From Candidatus Spechtbacteria bacterium (GTDB lineage Bacteria > Patescibacteriota > Minisyncoccia > Spechtbacterales > HO2-43-30), in contig JACOUK010000055.1 in the NCBI GenBank assembly GCA_016177905.1, positions 1 through 29,190 on the forward strand: a DNA stretch of 29,190 bases, written 5' to 3'. This document shows, piece after piece, positions 1-29,189 of this stretch (position 1 is its first letter; the number at the start of each line of letters is the position of its first letter). The position numbers and the translations under genes are program-made. The notes beneath the pieces were generated by a model. The model saw nothing but the letters and a program-made list of their open reading frames with translations, did no database searches and had not been told where the DNA came from.

Positions 1-1729
<1,729 letters not shown>

Positions 1730-1859
1730 CAAATTGGCGGCTTTCCCGAGTGATCGGGATTGAAAAAGCTGACTCATATCGGTGAATTCCTAATATACAT
1801 TGCATTTCAACCTGTCATATGTTAGGATAACACCGAGGGAAGCTATAAATTTTTTAGCT

Positions 1860-2366
1860 ATGATGTCTCATATTAGTAAAAGTCTCTGGGCGTATTTAGC
1901 AGGATTTCTGGATGGCGACGGCAGTATCTATGTGAGGGTGAAGCCCAATGATACCTACCGTTACGGGTTTCAAATTTCTCCTTCAGTTGTATTCTTTCAA
2001 TCGATAAAGGAGAAAGTGAAAATCCAAAAAATGCAGAAATCTTACGGAGTTGGATACATAAGGGAACGAAATGATGGGATAATAGAGTGGGTAGTCGGAG
2101 ACGAAAAGTCAATACGTCTGCTTATGAAGAGTGTTACGCCGTTCCTTATTCTAAAAACGGAACAGGCAAAATTGATGTTGGAAGTTTTGAATAGCAGACA
2201 ACAGATAAAGAGCGAAGAAGATTTTGTTAACGTAGTGAAAAACATAGATAGATTTCAGAAGTTAAATTACTCAAAGAAGCGAAGCGTTGGCACGGAAAAA
2301 GTATTGGCATACTTAAAACTAAAATTAGACATCAAACTTAAACGGAAAAATTTATTAGCCCCGTAG
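1860..2366 (+). CDS. Intron-encoded single-motif LAGLIDADG homing endonuclease, I-CreI-like (168 aa from ATG1860; ATG1863 possible)
   Basis: YLAGFLDGDGSI motif; KPNxxY, GVGYIRER, PFLxLK and YSKKR segments align by eye with I-CreI. Start moved from the ORF-track TTG1800, which lies in ribozyme P5. Confidence 0.93.
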   Translation: MMSHISKSLWAYLAGFLDGDGSIYVRVKPNDTYRYGFQISPSVVFFQSIKEKVKIQKMQKSYGVGYIRERNDGIIEWVVGDEKSIRLLMKSVTPFLILKTEQAKLMLEVLNSRQQIKSEEDFVNVVKNIDRFQKLNYSKKRSVGTEKVLAYLKLKLDIKLKRKNLLAP

Positions 2367-2371
2367 AGACT

Positions 2372-2439
2372 TCTCCGACTGTAGTCGGAGAGATGGGCGT
2401 TCGGCCCATAACACGTCGGCCCCCCGACTGCAGTCGGGG
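2372..2439. repeat. Two near-identical palindromic hairpins in the intron (core CCGACTGYAGTCGG at 2375-2388 and 2424-2437)
   Basis: TCTCCGACTGTAGTCGGAGA (2372-2391) and the perfect palindrome CCCCGACTGCAGTCGGGG (2422-2439); cores 13/14 identical; they occupy P7.1 and P8. Confidence 0.85.
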
Positions 2440-2480
2440 TGATGGTATAGTCCATACATTTGGCAACAAGTGAGTATATG

Positions 2481-2770
2481 CGTGAGACAGGTCGGTCTTT
2501 ATCTGCCATAGGCGTAGAACCTTGAGGGGAGTTCTCTATAGTACGAGAGGACCTAGAGGAACGAACCTCTGGTGTACCAGTTGTCCCGCCAGGGGCATTG
2601 CTGGGTAGCTATGTTCGGAAGGGATAAGCGCTGAAAGCATCTAAGCACGAAGCCCACCCCAAGATGAGGGTTCAAAGAGACCTCGAAGATGACGAGGTTG
2701 ATAGGCTCATGGTGTAAGCGCCGCAAGGCGTTCAGCCTATGAGTACTAATTTCTCATACACGAAATTTCC
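2481..2770 (+). rRNA. rrl: 23S rRNA, 3' exon (from E. coli C2594 to the 3' end; end approximate)
   Basis: CGTGAGACAG, sarcin-ricin loop AGTACGAGAGGAC (2540-2552), GCTGAAAGCATCTAAG, GAGGTTGATAGG, TACTAAT near the end. Confidence 0.96.
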
Positions 2771-2791
2771 TGCGGAGTTATAAGACTCTAT

Positions 2792-2940
2792 AAAATCCGA
2801 GATAATCTATGGGGGCTATACTGGCGTTGCTCTACCCGTTCCCATTCCGAACACGGAAGTAAAATACGCCAAGGCCGATGATACTAGGTTCGCCCTGGGA
2901 AAGTAGGTAGCTCCCGTAGATTGCCTCGGATTTTGTTTTT
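2792..2940 (+). terminator. 5S precursor processing stem, possibly doubling as rRNA operon terminator
   Basis: AAAATCCGAG (2792-2801) pairs with CTCGGATTTT (2925-2934), extending helix I; followed by GTTTTT. Confidence 0.55.
2806..2920 (+). rRNA. rrf: 5S rRNA
   Basis: Terminal helix TCTATGGGGGCTA/TAGCTCCCGTAGA; conserved CCCGTTCCCATTCCGAACACGGAAGT and GCCGATGATACT, GGGAAAGTAGGT; about 115 nt. Confidence 0.95.
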
Positions 2941-17669: not shown

Positions 17670-17700
17670 AAACTCCACTACTCGATGGAGTTTTGTTTTT
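17670..17700 (+). terminator. Intrinsic terminator of the pse operon
   Basis: AAACTCCA(17670-77)/TGGAGTTT(17686-93) perfect 8-bp stem, followed by TGTTTTT. Confidence 0.6.
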
Positions 17701-17702
17701 CT

Positions 17703-19220
17703 ATGACAAAAATTTTTTTAATTGAATGGCCGGAAAATCTCGCGGGAATCGCGCGAGAACTGCAAAAACGTTCCTGCGAGATTCTCTATTGGACTGGTGT
17801 TGGATTGCATGGATCTTCGAACCCGCTTGAGAAAGAATTTCCTCAAACTATTTTTCAGAATAGCTATGATTCGTTGCAGGGTCTTGATCCCTCTCGCGTG
17901 GACTCGGCGAGTTTTGAGCCCCTTTCGCGCGATGTGATAAGAAGATTTTTCGAATGCGAAGCGGCGACGTTGGCAATGATGGATCGCATTGATTATTCAG
18001 ACGTTCCGGTGCGGAGAAGAAAACGTCTCTATTATAAACTTTTGAAGTATTGGTTTGGAGTTTTGAAAAATCACACGCCCGATGCGATTGTTTTTTCCGT
18101 GACACCCCATCTTGTCTACGATTTTGTTCTGTACTGGGTCGCAAAAGATCTTGGGATATGCACACTCATGTTTATCCCGACAAGAATTCCGGAGAGATTA
18201 TTGCTGATTGACGATATCGAAGGCGGATCTTTGAGACTTACTCGGGAGTTGGAGGGGACCCGAAATGTCCGGTTCGAGGATTTAAGCAAAGATCTTCAGG
18301 ATTATTATATTTCTCAAACAACGCCAAAAAATAGCTCGCGTTTTCCATTCTATACTCACGCGGACTTGTATAAAGGGCGGATTAAAGTTGTGTACGTTCC
18401 ATCGCTCGCAAGAGTTTTTGCGAGCATTGTGAGGGGAGATTTCTTGTCCAGAGCAAGGGAGTATAGCAATCGAATTTTTTTTACAAAATCGCGCCTTCTT
18501 AGTTTCGATGCGCAGTACACAGGACTTGGTTATCAGATGAAGCTCTTGGAGTGGGAGAAGGCAAAACGAGAGTTTGAAAAAGAATACCGTTCGCTTGTCT
18601 CGCCGATTGATTGGAATAAAAAGTTTATCTATGCTCCGCTTCAGTTTCAACCCGAACGGTCAACTTCTCCGGAAGGAGGAATTTTTGCCGATCAATTTTT
18701 GATGATTGATATTTTGTCTCATTCTGTTCCTTCCGACTGGGTGGTCTACGTAAAAGAGCATCTATCTCAATGGACAAAAGGGGGCACTCACGCGCATCAG
18801 GGGAGATACCGCGGGTATTACAAAGAGTTGGCCGCATTTCCCAACGTGCGTTTGATTGCGCCGGAAATTTTATCGAATGAGCTTATCGCAAAGTGCGAAG
18901 TAGTTTCTTCGGTCGCGGGGACCGGTTCGTGGGAAGGAATATTGAACGGCAAGCCGTCTTTGATGTTTGGCTATCCGTCCTACAAGGATTGTAGCGAGGT
19001 TTTGAAAGTTTCCGATGTTCAATCCTGTAAAGCCGCGATCCAAAAAATTGCGAGCGGTTGGAAGCCGGATAAACAAAAAGTTTTAAATTATCTTGGCGCT
19101 TTCGATAAAGCGAGCATCAAGGGGCGGATAGAGCAGGGCGTTGAAAAGACATCTCTTGCCTCCCCGGAGGAAAATAATAAAGCCATTGCTGAAGGAATAT
19201 ATGGCGCATTGCGCAGCTAG
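17703..19220 (+). CDS. Capsule polysaccharide synthesis protein (KpsS-like), candidate CMP-ulosonate transferase
   Basis: FIYAPLQFQPERST, VYVKEH, SSVAGTGSWEGILNGKP..FG pattern typical of this family. ATG17703 preferred over ATG17685, which lies in the terminator. Confidence 0.65.
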   Translation: MTKIFLIEWPENLAGIARELQKRSCEILYWTGVGLHGSSNPLEKEFPQTIFQNSYDSLQGLDPSRVDSASFEPLSRDVIRRFFECEAATLAMMDRIDYSDVPVRRRKRLYYKLLKYWFGVLKNHTPDAIVFSVTPHLVYDFVLYWVAKDLGICTLMFIPTRIPERLLLIDDIEGGSLRLTRELEGTRNVRFEDLSKDLQDYYISQTTPKNSSRFPFYTHADLYKGRIKVVYVPSLARVFASIVRGDFLSRAREYSNRIFFTKSRLLSFDAQYTGLGYQMKLLEWEKAKREFEKEYRSLVSPIDWNKKFIYAPLQFQPERSTSPEGGIFADQFLMIDILSHSVPSDWVVYVKEHLSQWTKGGTHAHQGRYRGYYKELAAFPNVRLIAPEILSNELIAKCEVVSSVAGTGSWEGILNGKPSLMFGYPSYKDCSEVLKVSDVQSCKAAIQKIASGWKPDKQKVLNYLGAFDKASIKGRIEQGVEKTSLASPEENNKAIAEGIYGALRS

Positions 19221-22291: not shown

Positions 22292-22319
22292 AAAAAAAGC
22301 AGACTATTTCAGTCTGCTT
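22292..22319 (-). terminator. Intrinsic terminator of the EamA gene
   Basis: Minus strand AAGCAGACT-GAAAT-AGTCTGCTT-TTTTT: perfect 9-bp stem running into a T tract. Confidence 0.8.
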
Positions 22320-22355: not shown

Positions 22356-23234
22356 CTATTGTTGACTTATGATTATTATCGCGAGGCCGAAACCTCCGAG
22401 AATAAACGCGGCTTTTTCCTGCGCGGTTAGTCCTTTCCTTTCTTTAAATACCCACCAACCGACAAGGATTGTAAGTGCCGCTCCTCCAAAGCTTGAAATA
22501 GGAACGGCAAGTCCGAGGGGCACTAGTTGGAGCGCCCAATATTGAGTGAGAAGCGAAAGAAAAATTAAGAGACTCGCGATCGGTACTTTCCATACCGTTG
22601 GTTGGAAGAGTTCCCCCTGTTCTTTTCTTCTAATGAAGGCGATCAACAGCGAGCCAAGGAATGCACCGGCATACCAATATCCCAGGAAATTAGCGCGAGG
22701 AACTTCTAGCGCAAATGCAAAATATTTCATTATAAATATCACTATTCCAACGATGCCTATCATGACACCTGCCCAAAAGAGCCATTTGAGGGACGCATTT
22801 CCTTCTGCCTTACCCCTCTTCTTTTTCACAATGAGAAAAATTGAAAAGAAGAGAAGGAGAATTCCTCCAAGAAACCAGAAATTTTGATAGAGTTTTGCCT
22901 CGTCAAGAAAAATAGCGGCAAGTAGTGCGGCAAGAACTCCGCCAAGCGGGGTTACGAGAGCAGTTTTACTCAAGCTCAATGCCAGAGCTTGCCATTGCGC
23001 ATACGCGCCAAAGGCGTTGACTGCGCCTACGGCAAGGATTGGCAAAAGCCTTAATTCAAAGCGGATTTGCCCGAAGGCGAGTATCGCAAGCCACGCAATC
23101 GCCGCGGCGATTGCAAACTGAAGACAGAGCGCTTTTGCCTTCGGAAGTGTATTTGCGATTGATTTGAGTACGCCCGAGACTATTGCTACTATCGCAATTT
23201 GAGAAGCAATGACGAGAAAAACTAGACTTTCCAT
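22356..23234 (-). CDS. EamA/DMT-superfamily transporter (about 10 TM)
   Basis: Two hydrophobic 5-TM halves ending in AAIFLDE and GWWVFKE. Confidence 0.8.
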   Translation of the reverse strand: MESLVFLVIASQIAIVAIVSGVLKSIANTLPKAKALCLQFAIAAAIAWLAILAFGQIRFELRLLPILAVGAVNAFGAYAQWQALALSLSKTALVTPLGGVLAALLAAIFLDEAKLYQNFWFLGGILLLFFSIFLIVKKKRGKAEGNASLKWLFWAGVMIGIVGIVIFIMKYFAFALEVPRANFLGYWYAGAFLGSLLIAFIRRKEQGELFQPTVWKVPIASLLIFLSLLTQYWALQLVPLGLAVPISSFGGAALTILVGWWVFKERKGLTAQEKAAFILGGFGLAIIIISQQ

Positions 23235-23328: not shown

Positions 23329-24585
23329 TTATTTTTTTAAGAAAAGGAAAACTCCCAGGGTATTCGTGGCGACGGAGTTGATGAGGCGGGTGAGAACGAC
23401 GCCCCAAAGGCCGAAAATCGGAGTGAGTATGATAAGTAGAGTGATGCGGATAAGCGGAGAGAAAACGCTTGTGAGAAAAATATTTTTTTCCTGCATTTTC
23501 GCGTCAAATGTCTGACCAACAAAAGAAAGAGGGAAGAGAAAAATAAAAAACGAAAACGCCTGCGCGTAGAGGATGGTATCTTGGTATCTCGGAAAAAACG
23601 TATGGAAGACAAATGGAATAAGGAGGAGATACAATATAGTAAGAGGTATGACAAAGGCGTAGAGCCGTAAAACTTTCTTGGGGAGTTTTTGGCGAAGTTC
23701 CTCCTTGGAGAGCGCGCTCATTTTCGGGAACGCGATCTGATTTAAGACGCTTAGATTGTCGCTTATTTGGTTTGGTATTTTTTGCGCGAACGCATATATT
23801 GCGACTTGGGCCGGGCCTAAAAAATGCCAGATCAGCACCTGATCCAGTTCGCGCGCTATTGTGGGAATTATTTTGATAAAACTTACGCGGGTGCCAAACG
23901 GAATGGTTTTCTCATCCCTCGCTTTATTTGGAGGAAATTTTTTCGTTACAATCCGGAAAAAGAAAGCGCTTACCGCAATTTGAATCGCGAAATCTCCAAA
24001 GATGATGAGAGGAACGTTCTTTGTAAGATATACAATAAGTATTATCGCGGCAATCGAAATAACGGTTGAAGCGATTGCGTATATGCTTAAAAGCTTGAAG
24101 GATTTTTTCCCTTCGAGGTACGAGGCGTAGAGGGAGAAGGGGTTCAGAAGTGGCAGGAGGAGCGCCACGACGAGAAACGCGTATCCTAACGTTGGATTGC
24201 TTCTGAAAAAATAAAAAGCCGCCATGCCCAAACTTGCAAGACTGCCAATCAGACTCCATTTGATTTTAGTCCAAAATGCTGGATACAGCGACCCTTCGTA
24301 GCCCCTTGCGACCGCCTGTGTAATTGCGGCTTTCATGCTTTGGAGAGTGGGGATGGCAAGGATTGCTGCTATTGAAAGCACATATTGATACGTGCCGTAT
24401 ACTTCTTTTGAGAGGAGATTCGCGAAGGCGATCGCGGAAAGGATGCTTAAAAACGAAGCGAGTTTTTGGAGAGTAAGCCAAAATCCGCCGTGCGCCAAAT
24501 ACACATTGTCAGTCCCCGTGTATTTTTGCGTATAGCGCAGGATTTGGTAAATTTTTCCGTTAGTACTCAATAGATTCTTTGCCAC
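23329..24585 (-). CDS. wzx: Wzx-type oligosaccharide flippase (MOP/PST family)
   Basis: About 12 TM; AFANLLSKEVYGTYQY, LDQVLIWHFLGPAQVAIYAFA, LTPIFGLWGVV; GTG start. Confidence 0.82.
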   Translation of the reverse strand: MAKNLLSTNGKIYQILRYTQKYTGTDNVYLAHGGFWLTLQKLASFLSILSAIAFANLLSKEVYGTYQYVLSIAAILAIPTLQSMKAAITQAVARGYEGSLYPAFWTKIKWSLIGSLASLGMAAFYFFRSNPTLGYAFLVVALLLPLLNPFSLYASYLEGKKSFKLLSIYAIASTVISIAAIILIVYLTKNVPLIIFGDFAIQIAVSAFFFRIVTKKFPPNKARDEKTIPFGTRVSFIKIIPTIARELDQVLIWHFLGPAQVAIYAFAQKIPNQISDNLSVLNQIAFPKMSALSKEELRQKLPKKVLRLYAFVIPLTILYLLLIPFVFHTFFPRYQDTILYAQAFSFFIFLFPLSFVGQTFDAKMQEKNIFLTSVFSPLIRITLLIILTPIFGLWGVVLTRLINSVATNTLGVFLFLKK

Positions 24586-25231
24586 TTATGATGTCGAATT
24601 CCTTAATGGAGTAAAGAGAAGAAATTTCATTGATAGTATCATGGAGAAGTGTTACATCTTTGCCGGTGACGCGAAATGTGTACTCAAACATCTGATCCTG
24701 GCGTTTTTTGGAATTTAAAAGCATGACTGATATTTTGTTTTCGCGAAGACGATTGGTGAAAGCGTCTTGTTCTATGGGGGAAGTTGAATTGAGAAGTAGA
24801 ATATAGTTATTTTGGGTAAAATATCCAAGATTGAATCGAAAAAGCAGATAGGCGACAAGCGAAATCGCCGCCGTGGAAAGAAGCGCCACTGCGTATTGGT
24901 TTAATCCAACTGCTACACCTTCCGCGAGGGAGAGGAACAAAAACGCGATATCGCGAGTTTCTTTGATAATTGTACGGAAGCGGATAAACGCGAATGCTCC
25001 GAGGAGTCCGAGCGCCCCGTAAATGTTATTCTGGACAACCATGAGCACGACCGAAGCGATGATCCCTATGAGGACGAGCGTTGTGAAAAACGAGTAAGAA
25101 TAAGAAAGTCCTGTATGAGTTTTCTTATGGACATAGGCAATCGCAAGAGAAAGGAAAGTCGCGAACACAAGGTTGAAGATAACAACCGCGATGCTTACTT
25201 CCTGCTGTGAAAAGGAAAAAAAGTTTGGCAT
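24560..25231 (-). CDS. DUF4956 family membrane protein (4-5 TM plus small soluble C-terminal domain)
   Basis: GALGLLGAFAFIRFRTIIKETRDIAFLFLSLAEGVAVG matches the family signature (..IRFRT.IK..RD..F.F....G...G). Confidence 0.85.
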   Translation of the reverse strand: MPNFFSFSQQEVSIAVVIFNLVFATFLSLAIAYVHKKTHTGLSYSYSFFTTLVLIGIIASVVLMVVQNNIYGALGLLGAFAFIRFRTIIKETRDIAFLFLSLAEGVAVGLNQYAVALLSTAAISLVAYLLFRFNLGYFTQNNYILLLNSTSPIEQDAFTNRLRENKISVMLLNSKKRQDQMFEYTFRVTGKDVTLLHDTINEISSLYSIKEFDIISGKESIEY

Positions 25232-25262
25232 ACGTATTATAGCTTGTTCTCCGACAAGCAGA

Positions 25263-26009
25263 TTAACGGCTTATAGGATAAAATTTTTTCACCGCGTCTA
25301 CACTCGCGGCGTACTTGGAATACGCGTCACGTTTCAGATTATATTTTGTCAGAAGAAATTTGACTTGCCAAGGGAGGCGATCTTTGAACTTCAGTTCCAT
25401 GACCGCCTTTTTTCTGCTGACGGCTACGTTTGGATGCGGAGAGAATAGGTGAGTCTTTTTCGCAAAAATATCGAAATCAAGGGTAATGCGTATGGGGTTG
25501 TCTGATGCGCCAAGTTCAAATGCCTTTCTTTCATACTGTACGAGTAGAAAGGGTTTTCTTTGTTGAGAGGCAAGTAAAAAGATAAAATCATCCGCCACGT
25601 GCCGTTCCTTGCCCACTCTGCGAGATGAAATTTTGCGGTATGCCGCATGAGGAGACTCAAGGAGCGTTTCCCATTCCTCCGGCGTTATCCATATTCTTCT
25701 TTTGCAGATCATCATATCATACTTTTCTTTTATTTCAAGGGACACCGAAGGGCGAGAGCGATCAGTGTTGTTTACTTCTTTTCCGTAGATGCGGGCGCGG
25801 ACTTTGCGCCTTCCAAGAATTCCTCCGATTTTGTCAAAAAAATCCGAGAGATGCGGGGTTTCAAAGTATACGCTTGAAACAGTATATTGCCCGGAGGAAA
25901 ATTTTACGTCCCTTTTGAATCCAAGAAGAAGCAGATCGTCCTCGATGCGGCTGATCAAGTGATCTTGGATTGGATATTTGAATTCAAATCGCGAAAAAGT
26001 ATTTTGCAT
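25263..26009 (-). CDS. VTC-domain (polyphosphate polymerase-like, CYTH/TTM fold) protein
   Basis: RFEFKY, SVYFET, RKVRARIY, LEIKEK..KRR, YERKAF, RITLD, MELKF, YSKY: the full set of tunnel motifs. Confidence 0.88.
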   Translation of the reverse strand: MQNTFSRFEFKYPIQDHLISRIEDDLLLLGFKRDVKFSSGQYTVSSVYFETPHLSDFFDKIGGILGRRKVRARIYGKEVNNTDRSRPSVSLEIKEKYDMMICKRRIWITPEEWETLLESPHAAYRKISSRRVGKERHVADDFIFLLASQQRKPFLLVQYERKAFELGASDNPIRITLDFDIFAKKTHLFSPHPNVAVSRKKAVMELKFKDRLPWQVKFLLTKYNLKRDAYSKYAASVDAVKKFYPISR

Positions 26010-26018
26010 TGTTCGATG

Positions 26019-26040
26019 AAGTCAGCTTGCAGGCTGACTT
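26019..26040. repeat. Inverted repeat between cotH and the VTC gene
   Basis: AAGTCAGC(26019-26)/GCTGACTT(26033-40) perfect 8-bp arms; no T tract on the coding (minus) strand. Confidence 0.7.
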
Positions 26041-26043
26041 GCT

Positions 26044-28374
26044 TCATTTTTCAGGAATAATCACTGTCGAATTTTCGCTTTTGTTTATTTCAACGTTCAC
26101 GCGGATAAAAATGTTTCCTTCAAGCGTTGCTTCTCCGCCGCCGAAAATCGGTTTCTTTTGGTAGAGGCCAATTCCTTCCTCTGTATCTTCGATGGTATTA
26201 TTTTGTATCAGCGCTTTTGAGAGATCCTTTATCGCAACTCCAATAGTGCAATGGGACATTGTGTTGTCTCTAATATCTACGATTGAGTTTTCGCCTACGC
26301 TTATGCATTTATCTCCTGCATCGGTAATTTTATTTTCTGAAATCGTTGTGTCGCGAGTCATGGAAATATCAACGCCATCGCCTCCGATTGTTTTATCGAG
26401 CCCTATCTGTGAGAATGTATTTCCTTCGATCAAAAAATGATTTGGCGCGTCGAGATCAATCGCGTCGCCAGCGCCTCGGGCAAAGCTGGAGTTTACGATA
26501 CTGCCGTCTACGCCATATTTTATATTTACGATATCGTCGTCAGAGTCGTCATAAAATTGAGAATCCACGATGTGAATTTCGGTATTGTGCGCGGAGAGCG
26601 ATCCGGTAAATACGACCCCATTGATGCGGTCTGAAGATGAACCTCCAATCGTCACGACATTGGAAATGTCGCTTCTTTCTTTTGTATTGATTATAGCGAT
26701 CGAACCCCAATTTTTCCCAGGCTCAAGGCGCGCAAAAAGAATAGGATTTTGAGGAGTTCCAAGCGCTTGTATCGGACTATACGAGACAAAGGAAATTTTC
26801 GGCCCAAGATATATTTTAGTTCCCGCCTGTACAGTAAGCTCCGATCCTTGAGGAATAATAATGTTTTTTCGGAACACGTATTCTCCAGAAGGAAGGGTAA
26901 GGTTTCGTCCAAGGAGTCGGAATTGGGGATGGGTTTTGACAAATTCGCTTGGCGAAAGAGAAATATCCGAAAGATGTTCAAATGGCGGAGGGAATGAAAA
27001 ATTTTTGAGCTCTTCTTCATCTTGAGCTTCAGCAGTTTCCCCAGCGGGAGGATTTTTTACATTGAGAAGATTTTGCGCGACTCCATAGTTCTCTTGCATC
27101 CATGTTCGTATTTCCTTGATTCTGCGGTCTACTTCAAAGTCGTTTCGATATTTTGTCTGATCTTTATAAAATTCTGGTTTCAAGCGAGCGTACAAAGAAT
27201 CATACAATGCCAAATCTTCTTTCAGATTCTCCGCGCTTGCGATACCTGCGAGCGTTTGTAAGTATTCTTTGTAGAAATTTTGCGAGGAAAGGAGTCTTCT
27301 TGTAATGGGATCAGAATCATCGTAGGGAGTTTCTGTGTTTTTATAATGGGAGTCGTATGCGTGGATATCCTCAAGAAGAGGTTCAAATTTTCCTGTCGCG
27401 CTGTTGAAGAAAAGATTGAGGCTGGTTTTGAGCGAGTGGGAATCCCCCGCAAGGATGTTGATTGCGATTGCCTTATACCAGAGATCTACATCAAGAATAT
27501 TTCCGATGTGTTTGCGAAAGAACGCATCGTCGGGATTTTTAAGGATTTTAAATAAAGTTTCAAGTTCGCTGAACGCGGTATTTTTTTTGTCGATATCTCT
27601 TTCCCAGAGATTGTAAAAATCAATGCCGGAGTTAAAAGCGGGAGTATCCGGAGAGGGACTTGCGCTTTGGGAAAAAATTTCGCTCTCTGGTTGTCTCCCC
27701 TCCTTTTCAATCCAGCCCGCAGAAAAACGTTCTTTTACAAGGTAGACGCCGGCACTTTGCTGATCGATTTTTACCCACGCGAAAAACATATGCGGCGTAA
27801 GCAATCCCGCGCGCGTAAGGCGCAGGTTGTTTACGATTTCAGCGAGGTACGCGCGATCATTTGGGATGATAAGATCTATTCCTCCCATTGTTTGGAAGAG
27901 TTTTTTCTGCGGGAACTGGACAAGCAATGAGCGCTGGGCATGGATCCAGTGGTCGTTGACCGCGCCTCGATAGCGGACGTTCACTTTTTCTTTATAGTCT
28001 TCAGATTCAAAAAGCGCTGGAACGAATATTTTATTTTCAGCTTCGAGGTTATCACTAAAAAGATTTTTCGGAAGACTGCGATCCATAATCGCGAGATCCT
28101 TTGGATTGATAGTGATTTGAAATACGGGAAGTTTTGACTTGTAAAACCAGTAGGGGAAGTGGACAATATTCAGGGATTTTTGGAATGAAACGCGGGCATG
28201 CCAGAGATTGAGCGCAACATCCTTGAAAGAGGACTCTTCTAAGAACCCCATGATTTTTAGGACGTCGTTATATGACGGGCGATAAAACGTGAGCGGTATG
28301 CCGATGAGAACACAAATAATTGTTATGCCAGCGTATTTCCATTTTTTCTTGAGAAATTGAAAGACGAGGTTCAT
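26044..28374 (-). CDS. Membrane-anchored CotH-family kinase fused to a C-terminal right-handed beta-helix
   Basis: N-terminal TM (AGITIICVLIGIPLTF); VRYRG, AEIV..L..AGLLTP, AGVYLVKE, AINILAGD..SLNLFFN..GKFEPLLED; then repeats GDAIDLD, GDGVDIS, GDKCISVGE, GVAIKD. Confidence 0.78.
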   Translation of the reverse strand: MNLVFQFLKKKWKYAGITIICVLIGIPLTFYRPSYNDVLKIMGFLEESSFKDVALNLWHARVSFQKSLNIVHFPYWFYKSKLPVFQITINPKDLAIMDRSLPKNLFSDNLEAENKIFVPALFESEDYKEKVNVRYRGAVNDHWIHAQRSLLVQFPQKKLFQTMGGIDLIIPNDRAYLAEIVNNLRLTRAGLLTPHMFFAWVKIDQQSAGVYLVKERFSAGWIEKEGRQPESEIFSQSASPSPDTPAFNSGIDFYNLWERDIDKKNTAFSELETLFKILKNPDDAFFRKHIGNILDVDLWYKAIAINILAGDSHSLKTSLNLFFNSATGKFEPLLEDIHAYDSHYKNTETPYDDSDPITRRLLSSQNFYKEYLQTLAGIASAENLKEDLALYDSLYARLKPEFYKDQTKYRNDFEVDRRIKEIRTWMQENYGVAQNLLNVKNPPAGETAEAQDEEELKNFSFPPPFEHLSDISLSPSEFVKTHPQFRLLGRNLTLPSGEYVFRKNIIIPQGSELTVQAGTKIYLGPKISFVSYSPIQALGTPQNPILFARLEPGKNWGSIAIINTKERSDISNVVTIGGSSSDRINGVVFTGSLSAHNTEIHIVDSQFYDDSDDDIVNIKYGVDGSIVNSSFARGAGDAIDLDAPNHFLIEGNTFSQIGLDKTIGGDGVDISMTRDTTISENKITDAGDKCISVGENSIVDIRDNTMSHCTIGVAIKDLSKALIQNNTIEDTEEGIGLYQKKPIFGGGEATLEGNIFIRVNVEINKSENSTVIIPEK

Positions 28375-28382
28375 GAATGCAG

Positions 28383-29189
28383 TTAGTGAGCTTTAAGTTC
28401 TTCTTTTACCATAAGCTTTACGAGTTGCGCGAATGTTGTTTTCGGGCTCCAGTGAAGTTCTTTTTTTGCTTTTGAATAATCTCCGACAAGTGAATCAACT
28501 TCGGTTGGCCGGAAGTAGTAAGGGTCAATCACAATAATTGTCTTGCCATTTTGCTGGTTCACACCCTTTTCGTTGATGCCTTTTCCGCGCCATGCAATGT
28601 GTATACCTAACTCCTTGAATGCAAGTTCCGCAAATTCTTTTACAGTGTGGGTTTCGCCGGTCGCGATAACATAATCCTTCGGGGTTTTCTGCTGAAGCAT
28701 GCGCCACATGGCTTCGACGTATTCTTTCGCGTACCCCCAATCTCTTTTTGCGTGGAGATTCCCCAAGTATATGCGATCTCTTTTTCCCGCGGCAATTTCG
28801 ATTGCTCCCTGGACTATCTTTCTTGTGACAAAACTCTCTCCGCGTCTGGGAGATTCATGATTGAACAATATTCCAGAACAGGCAAACATATTGTATGCTT
28901 CCCGGTAATTTCGCGTCATCAAGTGCGCGTATAATTTTGCGACGCCATAAGGGCTCCGAGGGGAGAAAGGAGTCTCTTCGGTTTGGGGAAAGTGGGGCGG
29001 GTTGCCAAACAATTCGCTTGTGGAGGCTTGATAGAATTTTGTTTTTCCGCTCAATCCGGCAATCCGAATAGCTTCAAGGATTCTCAAGACTCCAAGCGCA
29101 TCGGTATTGGCGGTGTATTCTGGCGCTTCAAAAGAGAGGCGTACATGACTTTGTGCGGCAAGATTGTATATCTCGTCAGGCCTTACTTT
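28383..29189 (-). CDS. gmd: GDP-mannose 4,6-dehydratase (5'-partial; gene continues past the window)
   Basis: Frame open to the window edge: [77 protein letters not shown]. Confidence 0.96.

What the first reader, a model, noticed from the sequence alone, without database searches (positions are those of the whole stretch)
24560..28374. CotH kinase/beta-helix + VTC polyphosphate-polymerase-like + DUF4956 module built into a surface-glycan operon
Seen: cotH-VTC-DUF4956 are co-oriented and packed between gmd (8 nt gap) and wzx (26 nt overlap), with 34 and 31 nt internal gaps. The VTC protein keeps all tunnel motifs and has no TM segment. DUF4956 is a multi-TM protein. CotH has an N-terminal anchor and a beta-helix. 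Established: eukaryotic Vtc4 makes polyP and threads it through an attached TM channel; CotH proteins are secreted Fam20C-like kinases; extracellular ATP is scarce. Inference: this is a split bacterial analogue of the VTC complex that exports polyP (or another phosphoryl donor) to an outside kinase, which phosphorylates or polyphosphorylates the flippase-exported glycan or surface proteins. The trio is annotated in other bacteria, but I know of no functional characterisation, and here it is tied to a nonulosonate glycan in a probable CPR cell.
Basis: partly seen in the sequence, partly recalled or inferred. Interest (0 to 1): 0.82.

Follow-up and report, generated by a model that had tools for sequence, protein, structure and literature searches.

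The report
CotH–VTC–DUF4956 cassette in glycan operon
Three tightly linked genes in a tiny CPR bacterium's sugar-coat operon encode a polyphosphate-polymerase-like enzyme inside the cell, a membrane partner and an outward-facing kinase-like sugar-binding enzyme. The set is widespread, already noticed in print and has no biochemical characterisation, and it probably modifies the surface sugar, though the proposed polyphosphate export is unproven.

Summary
In detail: gene order, gaps, domains and topology are all as described. The genes lie in one minus-strand unit, gmd–CotH/β-helix–VTC–DUF4956–wzx–DMT transporter, inside a nonulosonate glycan locus of a ~0.7 Mb Parcubacteria-like genome.

The trio is the known, biochemically uncharacterised cotH/"polyphosphate polymerase"/DUF4956 accessory cassette of Gram-positive Pel loci. 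This scan has noted it many times before on other DNA, including in a Parcubacteria glycan operon.

Supporting a functional unit:
- In 251 Patescibacteria genomes the three families are nested: CotH 11 ⊂ DUF4956 13 ⊂ VTC 16.
- They are adjacent in varying orders and enriched in glycan loci.
- PPK1 and PPK2 are essentially not found.
- All Vtc4-type tunnel residues are invariant in 77 linked VTC proteins.

- DUF4956 is MgtC/YhiD-like (five helices plus a cytoplasmic ACT-like domain), not like the Vtc channel.
- The CotH catalytic Asp is an invariant His (H313), and the Asn is Ser here.
- Some VTC–DUF4956 loci lack CotH.
- Deleting VTC in Streptococcus intermedius gave no reported phenotype.

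Best reading: an accessory envelope module acting on the flipped glycan. PolyP export to the CotH-like enzyme remains a minority hypothesis. Interest is moderate; this is a new member of a known kind.

The parts
28383..29189 (-). GDP-mannose 4,6-dehydratase (gmd). Its 5' end is cut by the contig end. First visible gene of the unit.
   Evidence: Pfam GDP_Man_Dehyd 1.3e-119. 8-nt gap to CotH.
26044..28374 (-). Membrane-anchored CotH-like protein fused to a right-handed beta-helix (776 aa). Signal anchor aa 14-30, kinase-like fold aa ~80-440, beta-helix aa ~485-772.
   Evidence: Pfam CotH, Beta_helix and NosD. AF2 model pLDDT 82.5. Foldseek: B. cereus CotH 5jda, TM 0.80 by target; beta-helix resembles AlgE4/AlgE6 epimerases and PL6 alginate lyases.
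27436..27438 (-). Codon of His313, at the position of the CotH catalytic Asp (B. subtilis D228).
   Evidence: Profile alignment to 5jd9. Invariant in 12 close homologues. His in 47 of 61 module-linked CotH ORFs. Independent MAFFT alignment agrees.
27367..27369 (-). Codon of Asp336, equivalent to the metal-binding Asp (B. subtilis D251). Retained.
   Evidence: Asp in 52 of 61. Same 23-residue spacing from position 313 as D228-D251.
25263..26009 (-). Stand-alone VTC (triphosphate-tunnel) domain protein, 248 aa, soluble and cytoplasmic.
   Evidence: Pfam VTC 4.7e-30. Profile hit to the Vtc4 catalytic domain 3g3q, 9.3e-11. Tunnel residues invariant in 77 of 77 linked VTCs. No TM segment.
24560..25231 (-). 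DUF4956 membrane protein, 223 aa. Five helices (aa 14-132) plus a cytoplasmic ACT-like beta-alpha-beta-beta-alpha-beta domain (aa ~139-221). Invariant basic loop IRFRTxxKETRD (aa 83-94).
   Evidence: Pfam DUF4956 1e-12. AF2 pLDDT 79.6. Nearest folds are YhiD, SapB and HI_0647, and the ACT and MgtC C-domains at Z 8.4-9.9. Positive-inside loop charges.
23329..24585 (-). Wzx-type flippase (Polysacc_synt family). Overlaps the DUF4956 stop.
   Evidence: Pfam Polysacc_synt and Polysacc_synt_3, ~7e-18. Start-codon choice discussed.
22356..23234 (-). 10-TM DMT/EamA-like transporter, the last gene of the unit.
   Evidence: No Pfam hit. Hydropathy. ESM Atlas features 0.98 and structure TM 0.84 to EamA/GRP sugar-transporter clusters.
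22297..22319 (-). Terminator-like hairpin (10-bp stem followed by a T run), directly after the DMT transporter gene. Probable end of the transcription unit.
   Evidence: Consensus scan only. No comparable site lies in the 8, 34 or 31-nt gaps.

Best explanation
This is the CPR version of the conserved VTC-DUF4956-CotH envelope cassette, built into a Wzx-dependent nonulosonate glycan operon as an accessory glycan-modification module.

Shown:
- A cytoplasmic VTC enzyme with a complete, strictly conserved Vtc4-type triphosphate tunnel.
- An MgtC-like five-helix membrane protein. Its invariant basic loop and ACT-like domain face the cytoplasm.
- A type-II-anchored, outward-facing protein that joins a CotH kinase fold to a beta-helix resembling enzymes that act on acidic polysaccharides. 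In the kinase fold the catalytic Asp is His and the metal-binding Asp is kept.

Inferred:
- VTC docks on DUF4956 and uses ATP to make a phosphoanhydride product, polyP or a short oligophosphate.
- DUF4956 passes that product, or a signal derived from it, across the single membrane.
- The CotH-like/beta-helix enzyme binds the flipped acidic glycan and uses that supply for phosphoryl-transfer chemistry where no ATP is available. The His may act as base or as a phospho-acceptor.

My odds:
- The trio is one glycan-associated envelope module: about 0.85.
- VTC makes a phosphate chain: about 0.5.
- DUF4956 passes it outward: about 0.3.
- The CotH-like enzyme uses it as donor on the glycan: about 0.12.

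The confidence given below is for the whole chain in its loose form, meaning VTC and DUF4956 supply the outward-facing enzyme that acts on the glycan.
For: - Tight co-oriented packing with gmd, wzx and a DMT transporter, with a terminator-like site only after the last gene.
- Nested phyletic pattern in 251 Patescibacteria: DUF4956 in 13, VTC in 16 (all 13 plus 3 fragments), CotH in 11 (all within the 13). None of these occurs in the remaining genomes.
- VTC lies on the same strand within 4.5 kb of DUF4956 in 57 of 58 loci. Orders vary: CVD 25, VD 15, DCV 6, CCVD 5, VDC 4.
- 9 of 9 Pfam-annotated CPR neighbourhoods are glycan loci.
- Neighbours of the trio in 12 evenly sampled genomes: Epimerase 10, GT4 9 and GT2 7 of 100 ORFs. 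Control regions of the same genomes: GT4 2, Epimerase and GT2 at most 1 each, of 117 ORFs.
- VTC tunnel residues are 77 of 77 conserved and align with identical residues of Vtc4.
- No PPK1 and no convincing PPK2 in the own genome or in 251 Patescibacteria. VTC is therefore the only recognisable polyP-forming enzyme, and it occurs only together with the module.
- Topology: basic loops and the ACT domain of DUF4956 face inward. The CotH N-side carries 3-6 Lys/Arg in most homologues.
- The CotH model matches 5jda, and its beta-helix matches alginate epimerases and lyases.
- Deleting the DUF4956 and CotH homologues in S. intermedius changed Pel levels and cut aggregation by more than 50% in sputum medium.
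Against: - No bacterial VTC, DUF4956 or His-type CotH has been assayed. Literature searches found none.
- DUF4956 resembles MgtC/YhiD/SapB, a family with no demonstrated channel function. Its membrane part matches no solved transporter or the Vtc channel.
- No VTC-DUF4956 or VTC-TM fusion was seen: the top 150 of 11,423 VTC representatives are all ~235-280 aa, and Atlas clusters show none.
- The S. intermedius VTC deletion had no reported phenotype. The DUF4956 and CotH deletions changed Pel in opposite directions.
- Two of nine CPR loci have VTC-DUF4956 without CotH. One locus has a CotH-DUF4956 pair without VTC.
- To my knowledge, no kinase-fold enzyme is known to use polyP.
- An invariant Glu9 stands where yeast Vtc4 has Thr, so the chemistry may differ from polymerisation.
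- This protein also has Ser at the conserved Asn position.
Confidence: 0.35

Rival explanations
1. Regulatory or checkpoint module. DUF4956, like MgtC, is a small membrane regulator. Its ACT-like domain and bound VTC enzyme sense cytoplasmic nucleotide or phosphate status and tune the glycan assembly or export machinery. The CotH-like/beta-helix protein is a separate extracytoplasmic glycan-binding or glycan-processing factor. Nothing phosphate-derived crosses the membrane.
For: - MgtC-like fold with an ACT-like domain. MgtC is described as a regulator of the F-ATPase and PhoR (as cited in PMC12345266).
- The DUF4956 deletion raised Pel while the CotH deletion lowered it.
- DUF4956 is also found fused to STAS, another small regulatory domain.
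- CotH is dispensable in some loci.
Against: - A sensor would not need every catalytic tunnel residue of a polymerase to be kept in 77 of 77 proteins.
- Strict co-occurrence of CotH with the pair, and never without it, in 251 genomes suggests more than loose co-regulation.
Confidence: 0.25
2. PolyP itself is the exported product, forming a surface or capsule-like polyanion layer or a cation store. The CotH-like/beta-helix protein anchors, trims or couples it to the acidic glycan rather than using it as a phosphoryl donor for a kinase reaction.
For: - VTC-DUF4956 is the invariant core and occurs without CotH.
- Earlier scan notes report the pair with HlyD/TolC ducts in diderms (not checked here).
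- No other polyP metabolism is present in CPR.
Against: - No evidence for a DUF4956 pore.
- The consistent embedding in glycan-synthesis operons fits modification of a glycan better than an independent polymer.
- It is costly for a ~0.7 Mb symbiont-type genome.
Confidence: 0.15
3. The CotH-like domain is a pseudokinase or has non-kinase chemistry such as nucleotidylation or lyase support. VTC is a tri- or polyphosphate hydrolase. The genes share an operon only because all serve envelope biogenesis.
For: - Catalytic Asp replaced by His, and Asn by Ser, in this protein.
- D228Q inactivates B. subtilis CotH.
- The extra invariant Glu9 recalls hydrolytic TTM enzymes (the comparison is from my own knowledge).
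Against: - His313, Asp336 and most other CotH signature residues are under strong conservation, which argues for an active site.
- Nested co-occurrence and varying gene order argue for direct functional dependence.
Confidence: 0.15
4. The adjacency is fortuitous or an annotation artefact.
For: None found.
Against: All three ORFs have significant family hits, conserved homologues and confident models. Adjacency recurs in dozens of genomes.
Confidence: 0.01

Closest known systems
cotH / 'poly-phosphate polymerase' / DUF4956 accessory genes of Gram-positive pel loci (Whitfield et al., bioRxiv 10.1101/768473; S. intermedius SIR_1594/1593/1592, PMC12345266)
   Same: The same three families, contiguous and attached to a polysaccharide biosynthesis operon. 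CotH is predicted to be exported. DUF4956 is described there as an MgtC-like TM domain plus an ACT domain. No biochemical function is known.
   Different: - Here the host locus is a Wzx-dependent nonulosonate glycan operon in a CPR genome, not pelDEADAFG.
- No DUF4832 hydrolase is present.
- CotH carries a beta-helix instead of an FN3 domain.
- The 2025 paper states that the syntenic trio was not found outside Pel loci. This window and 9 of 9 CPR neighbourhoods contradict that.
Eukaryotic VTC complex (Vtc4/Vtc3 or Vtc2/Vtc1; PDB 3g3q catalytic domain, 9umg complex)
   Same: A VTC/TTM tunnel domain with identical residues at the aligned catalytic positions. A cytoplasmic catalytic domain that is obligatorily paired with a membrane protein.
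   Different: - No SPX domain.
- No C-terminal Vtc-type transmembrane domain.
- The membrane partner is a separate, unrelated MgtC-like protein.
- Glu9 stands where Vtc4 has Thr.
- Activity is untested.
Bacillus spore-coat kinase CotH (PDB 5jd9/5jda; B. subtilis CotH)
   Same: Same fold (Foldseek E 2e-13, TM 0.80 by target) and Pfam family. The metal-binding Asp and several signature residues (YRG, GVY..E, D295, E331) are conserved.
   Different: - Catalytic Asp replaced by His, and Asn by Ser.
- Membrane-anchored and outward-facing rather than acting in the mother-cell cytoplasm.
- Fused to a carbohydrate-type beta-helix.
- Linked to VTC and DUF4956, which B. subtilis lacks (controls).
MgtC/YhiD/SapB family
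   Same: DUF4956 shares the architecture (about 5 TM helices plus a C-terminal ACT-like domain), has a weak Pfam MgtC hit, and its nearest predicted and solved folds are from this family.
   Different: It is a separate Pfam family (PF16316) with its own invariant IRFRTxxKETRD loop and C-terminal EY. It is always paired with VTC, which MgtC is not.

Membership tests
Eukaryotic VTC polyphosphate polymerase complex | TTM tunnel catalytic domain with the conserved basic and acidic tunnel residues | tested here: met
   Pfam VTC 4.7e-30. Profile hit to 3g3q at 9.3e-11, with R7, K11, R71, R73, E92, K94, K103, Y159, R161, R174, D178, E205, K207, S231 and K232 aligned to identical Vtc4 residues. These are invariant in 77 of 77 proteins.
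Eukaryotic VTC polyphosphate polymerase complex | N-terminal SPX regulatory domain | tested here: not met
   The protein is 248 aa. The VTC profile covers residues 7-239 and no other Pfam domain is found.
Eukaryotic VTC polyphosphate polymerase complex | Vtc-type transmembrane domain forming the polyP channel, on the catalytic subunit and on Vtc1 | tested here: not met
   VTC has no hydrophobic segment. The DUF4956 membrane part matches no Vtc chain in Foldseek/PDB or in the wide VIA-align search.
Eukaryotic VTC polyphosphate polymerase complex | ATP-dependent polyP synthesis coupled to translocation | not testable with these tools
   Needs biochemistry. No bacterial VTC assay was found in the literature held.
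CotH protein kinases (PF08757) | CotH fold and family signature | tested here: met
   Pfam 3.6e-11. Profile hit to 5jd9 at 2.5e-18. Foldseek 5jda at 2e-13, TM 0.80.
CotH protein kinases (PF08757) | Catalytic Asp (B. subtilis D228; D228Q is inactive) | tested here: not met
   His313 at this position. Invariant in 12 close homologues. His in 47 of 61 module-linked CotH ORFs.
CotH protein kinases (PF08757) | Metal-binding Asp (B. subtilis D251) and the Asn five residues after the catalytic position | tested here: inconclusive
   Asp336 is present (Asp in 52 of 61). The Asn position is Ser318 in this protein, although it is Asn in 56 of 61 relatives.
CotH protein kinases (PF08757) | ATP-dependent Ser/Thr protein kinase activity | not testable with these tools
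The outward-facing topology and the Asp-to-His change make it doubtful.
DUF4956 (PF16316), MgtC-like | Family profile match above the curated cut-off | tested here: met
   48.6 bits against a cut-off of 30.6. 153 homologues, all carrying PF16316.
DUF4956 (PF16316), MgtC-like | Multi-helix membrane domain plus a C-terminal ACT-like domain | tested here: met
   AF2 model. YhiD, SapB and HI_0647 are the nearest Swiss-Prot models. ACT and MgtC C-domains at Z 8.4-9.9.
Pel-locus cotH/PPP/DUF4956 accessory cluster | Three genes contiguous and co-oriented | tested here: met
Pel-locus cotH/PPP/DUF4956 accessory cluster | Contiguous with pelDEADAFG, and usually with a DUF4832 hydrolase | tested here: not met
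   Pfam scans of the main window ORFs (at least 120 aa) show no Pel or DUF4832 genes. The neighbours are gmd, wzx, a DMT transporter and nonulosonate genes.
Right-handed beta-helix (CASH/NosD, PF13229/PF05048) | Parallel beta-helix repeats | tested here: met
   Pfam 5.2e-13 and 7e-09. The model shows about 25 short strands across aa 486-772. Foldseek matches AlgE4, AlgE6 and PL6 lyases.

The most novel reading that the evidence does not exclude
VTC and DUF4956 form a bacterial polyphosphate synthase-translocase that is unrelated in its membrane part to the eukaryotic VTC channel. It feeds phosphoanhydride energy across the membrane to a His-dependent CotH-fold phosphotransferase. That enzyme phosphorylates or polyphosphorylates a nonulosonate surface glycan outside the cell. 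This would be an ATP-independent route for extracytoplasmic phosphorylation. In CPR bacteria it would be the only polyP metabolism present.
Probability: 0.12. Interest if true: 0.85.

Novelty: new member of a known kind. Interest (0 to 1): 0.45.

Why it matters
How bacteria carry out phosphoryl chemistry outside the cytoplasmic membrane, where there is no ATP, is only partly understood. A widespread cassette, with about 11,000 VTC cluster representatives, pairs a polymerase-like cytoplasmic enzyme with a membrane protein and an outward-facing kinase-fold enzyme. That makes it a concrete and testable candidate.

CPR genomes offer an unusually clean setting. They have one membrane and a minimal genome. 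The cassette sits inside a defined glycan operon, and no PPK1 or PPK2 is present to confound a polyP assay.

The result also corrects a published statement that the trio occurs only at Pel loci. It further shows that the 'CotH kinase' annotation is misleading for this subfamily, because the catalytic Asp is His.

As an observation it is not new. The cassette is in print, and this scan has reported it many times.

Tried and rejected
- **Sequence search against PDB with single proteins.** Too weak. Profiles were needed.
- **Rosetta-stone fusions of VTC with DUF4956, a TM domain or CotH.** Long VTC ORFs in L071, L081, L075 and L079 contain only the one domain and are probably over-extended starts. 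Atlas clusters show only DUF4956-STAS and DUF4956-3keto-disac_hyd fusions. The top 150 VTC representatives are all stand-alone. This gives no support for, and no evidence against, physical coupling.
- **DUF4956 as a Vtc1-like or other known channel.** Foldseek/PDB and a wide VIA-align search matched only the ACT-like C-domain.
- **Nguyen et al. 2016 (CotH structure paper).** Not held. Catalytic residues were taken from PMC7821199 instead.
- **BLAST of window glycan genes against CPR loci.** This under-counts glycan context because the window has no GT2, GT4 or PMT_2 queries. It was replaced by Pfam tallies with a control.
- **Promoter scan.** Consensus hits only, and not informative for CPR.
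- **Conventional polyP enzymes as a confounder.** None found.
- **Multimer modelling of VTC with DUF4956.** The tools do not offer it.

Full report
**1. Observation**

All genes are on the minus strand:
- gmd 28383-29189, cut by the contig end
- CotH plus Beta_helix/NosD, 26044-28374 (776 aa)
- VTC 25263-26009 (248 aa)
- DUF4956 24560-25231 (223 aa, with a sub-threshold MgtC hit)
- a Polysacc_synt flippase, 23329-24585

The gaps are 8, 34 and 31 nt. The 26-nt overlap with wzx assumes the GTG at 24585; a TTG at 24570 would give 11 nt.

The next gene, 22356-23234, has no Pfam hit. It is a 10-TM DMT/EamA-like transporter by hydropathy and by ESM Atlas features and structure. A terminator-like hairpin follows it at 22319-22297. 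The visible unit is therefore gmd-CotH-VTC-DUF4956-wzx-DMT.

The rest of the window is a nonulosonate locus:
- two NeuB synthases
- PseB/PseC-like enzymes
- two CTP_transf_3 cytidylyltransferases
- an Epimerase_2
- a GNAT and a HAD protein
- a Glyphos_transf-like protein
- 23S and 5S rRNA at the left end

All close homologues of the three proteins come from Parcubacteria/Patescibacteria MAGs. The assembly is 0.70 Mb at 82.6% completeness. A CPR origin is well supported.

**2. The three proteins**

*VTC.*
- It has no hydrophobic segment.
- A profile of 25 homologues hits the yeast Vtc4 catalytic domain 3g3q at 9.3e-11. R7, K11, R71, R73, E92, K94, K103, Y159, R161, R174, D178, E205, K207, S231 and K232 align to identical residues.
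- From my recollection of the Vtc4 structure paper, these include the catalytic Lys and the tunnel Arg and Lys residues.
- In 77 VTC proteins encoded next to DUF4956 across several phyla, these positions are 77 of 77 conserved.
- One difference from Vtc4 is an invariant Glu9 where Vtc4 has Thr.
- There is no SPX domain and no transmembrane domain.

*DUF4956.*
- The AF2 model (pLDDT 79.6) has helices at 14-38, 46-66, 70-82, 85-109 and 113-132, then a beta-alpha-beta-beta-alpha-beta domain.
- Loop charges across 37 homologues follow the positive-inside rule. This places the N-terminus outside and the ACT-like domain inside, together with the invariant loop IRFRTxxKETRD (4 basic residues).
- The nearest Swiss-Prot models are YhiD, HI_0647 and SapB, all MgtC family.
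- The nearest solved folds are ACT domains and the MgtC C-domains 2lqj and 7qa5, at Z 8.4-9.9.
- The membrane part matched no solved structure. That includes the yeast VTC complex, which is in the library (9umg was found by sequence).
- DUF4956 is thus not a counterpart of the Vtc channel by descent or by fold.

*CotH.*
- There is one N-terminal hydrophobic helix (aa 14-30) preceded by KKKWK. Most homologues have 3-6 basic residues on the N side, so the bulk is predicted to lie outside.
- In the AF2 model (pLDDT 82.5) the kinase-like part superposes on B. cereus CotH 5jda (E 2e-13, TM 0.80 by target).
- The beta-helix is closest to the mannuronan C5-epimerases AlgE4 and AlgE6, PL6 alginate lyases and polygalacturonases. 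These are enzymes of acidic polysaccharides.
- The profile alignment to 5jd9 puts His313 at the position of the catalytic Asp and Asp336 at the metal-binding Asp, with the same 23-residue spacing as B. subtilis D228 and D251. D228Q and D251A are catalytically inactive (PMC7821199).
- His313 is invariant in the 12 closest homologues. It is His in 47 of 61 CotH ORFs found beside DUF4956, and in 37 of 44 of those that carry a beta-helix.
- An independent MAFFT alignment gives the same column, with Asp in the canonical-looking CotH genes of L005, L006, L073 and L077.
- The Asn five residues downstream is kept in 56 of 61 but is Ser318 in this protein.
- This is therefore not a canonical CotH kinase. 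Strong conservation of His313, Asp336 and the other signature residues suggests an active site with altered chemistry.

**3. Is the trio a unit, and is it tied to glycans?**

In an even sample of 251 Patescibacteria genomes:
- DUF4956 occurs in 13.
- VTC occurs in 16: all of those 13, plus three fragmentary or contig-end hits.
- CotH occurs in 11, all within the 13.
- None of the 12 same-class genomes sampled has any of them, so the module is sporadic and accessory.

Across 58 loci with enough flank, VTC lies on the same strand within 4.5 kb of DUF4956 in 57. A CotH/beta-helix gene lies within 4.5 kb in 41. That count uses a CPR-trained HMM and is an underestimate for other phyla. Gene order varies: CotH-VTC-DUF 25, VTC-DUF 15, DUF-CotH-VTC 6, two CotH 5, VTC-DUF-CotH 4.

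All nine CPR neighbourhoods with precomputed Pfam annotation are glycan loci. They carry GT2, GT4, GT-C/PMT_2, Polysacc_synt flippases and sugar-nucleotide enzymes, and three carry NeuB.

For the 12 genomes from the even sample I compared two sets of ORFs.

| Pfam family | 100 ORFs within 6 kb of the module | 117 ORFs from arbitrary regions of the same genomes |
|---|---|---|
| Epimerase | 10 | at most 1 |
| GT4 | 9 | 2 |
| GT2 | 7 | at most 1 |
| Methyltransferases | 6 | not among the families shown |

The control regions were dominated by housekeeping families. Related genomes are not independent, so I give no P-value, but the enrichment is plain.

The statement in PMC12345266 that the syntenic trio is not found outside Pel loci does not hold.

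**4. PolyP context**

- PPK1 and PPK2 were not found in the own genome. Ppx-GppA scored below cut-off.
- In 251 Patescibacteria, PPK1 reached the cut-off in none. PPK2 reached it in two, and only as short P-loop matches.
- VTC is therefore the only recognisable polyP-forming enzyme in these organisms, and it occurs only with DUF4956.
- Whatever VTC makes, it is made for this module and not for general polyP storage.

**5. What is known**

- The trio is described as an accessory gene group of Gram-positive pel operons (10.1101/768473).
- It appears in C. perfringens NELoc-2 next to a chitin-synthase-like GT (PMC2879425).
- In S. intermedius, deleting the DUF4956 gene raised Pel and deleting the CotH gene lowered it. 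Both cut aggregation by more than 50% in sputum medium. The VTC deletion aggregated like wild type (PMC12345266).
- No biochemical study of a bacterial VTC, of DUF4956 or of a His-type CotH was found.
- This scan has recorded the cassette in hundreds of genomes. That includes a groundwater Parcubacteria glycan operon with the same Asp-to-His change (e1-799317). A later check priced the polyP-translocation reading at 5 in 100 (e1-1371586). My own tests reproduce those observations independently on this DNA.

**6. Mechanism**

*Shown:*
- a cytoplasmic enzyme with an intact polymerase-type tunnel
- a membrane protein whose conserved basic loop and ACT-like domain face that enzyme
- an outward-facing kinase-fold/beta-helix protein
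- strict co-inheritance of the three
- embedding in glycan operons
- absence of other polyP enzymes

*Inferred:*
- VTC docks on DUF4956.
- A phosphoanhydride product, or a signal, is passed outward.
- The CotH-like enzyme, held on the acidic glycan by its beta-helix, uses it.

I rate the loose form of this chain at about 0.35.

The main rival is a regulatory reading of the MgtC-like protein, at 0.25. It is favoured by the opposite Pel phenotypes and the silent VTC deletion. It is disfavoured by the perfect conservation of the catalytic tunnel.

Two further rivals stand at 0.15 each. In one, exported polyP is itself the product. In the other, the CotH-like domain is a non-kinase and VTC is a hydrolase.

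**7. Verdict**

The unit, its topology and its glycan linkage hold. The analogy to the Vtc channel and the canonical kinase do not.
- This is a new member of a known, uncharacterised cassette, in a context (CPR, Wzx/nonulosonate) that the literature has not described but the scan has.
- Interest is moderate.

Noticed in passing
window 22356-23234 (-): The last gene of the unit has no Pfam hit but is a 10-TM DMT/EamA-like (GRP/nucleotide-sugar-transporter-like) protein. DMT relatives supply nucleotides and nucleotide sugars to eukaryotic secretory compartments, so it could matter for substrate supply. Homologues lie near the module in only 1 of 52 CPR loci.
   Followed up: partly
window 1-2919 (+): The 23S rRNA match ends at 1861 and 5S is at 2808-2919. 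A LAGLIDADG ORF (1800-2366) lies at or after the 3' end of the 23S match.
   Followed up: no
L092:164-2208 (+): A Ryanbacteria-like contig carries a second CotH-DUF4956 pair without VTC, 5 kb upstream of a complete CotH/beta-helix-VTC-DUF4956 trio. DUF4956 can therefore pair with CotH alone.
   Followed up: no
L091:7672-10684 and L093:8374-10684: VTC-DUF4956 pairs in CPR glycan loci without any CotH. In L091 the upstream gene is a 534-aa protein with no Pfam family; in L093 it is a GT2. The invariant core of the module is the VTC-DUF4956 pair.
   Followed up: partly
L001, L019, L091, L092, L093, L094: GT-C/PMT_2 glycosyltransferases recur within a few kb of the VTC-DUF4956 pair in CPR loci. 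These enzymes work outside the membrane with lipid-linked donors.
   Followed up: no
window 24560-24568 (-) (DUF4956 C-terminus): The last two residues, Glu-Tyr, are invariant in all 37 aligned DUF4956 proteins. This may be a docking motif.
   Followed up: no
ESM Atlas clusters: DUF4956 occurs fused to STAS domains (234-member cluster, Acidobacteriota) and to a 3-keto-disaccharide-hydrolase-like domain (Chloroflexota). No fusion to VTC was seen.
   Followed up: no
251 Patescibacteria genomes: PPK1 was not found over cut-off in any sampled Patescibacteria genome. PPK2 was found only as two short P-loop matches. Conventional polyphosphate kinases seem to be essentially missing from the phylum sample.
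   Followed up: partly
window 17685-19220 (+): A 511-aa protein with only a weak Capsule_synth (KpsS/KpsC-like) hit (E 0.0012). It is a candidate nonulosonate or Kdo-type transferase.
   Followed up: no
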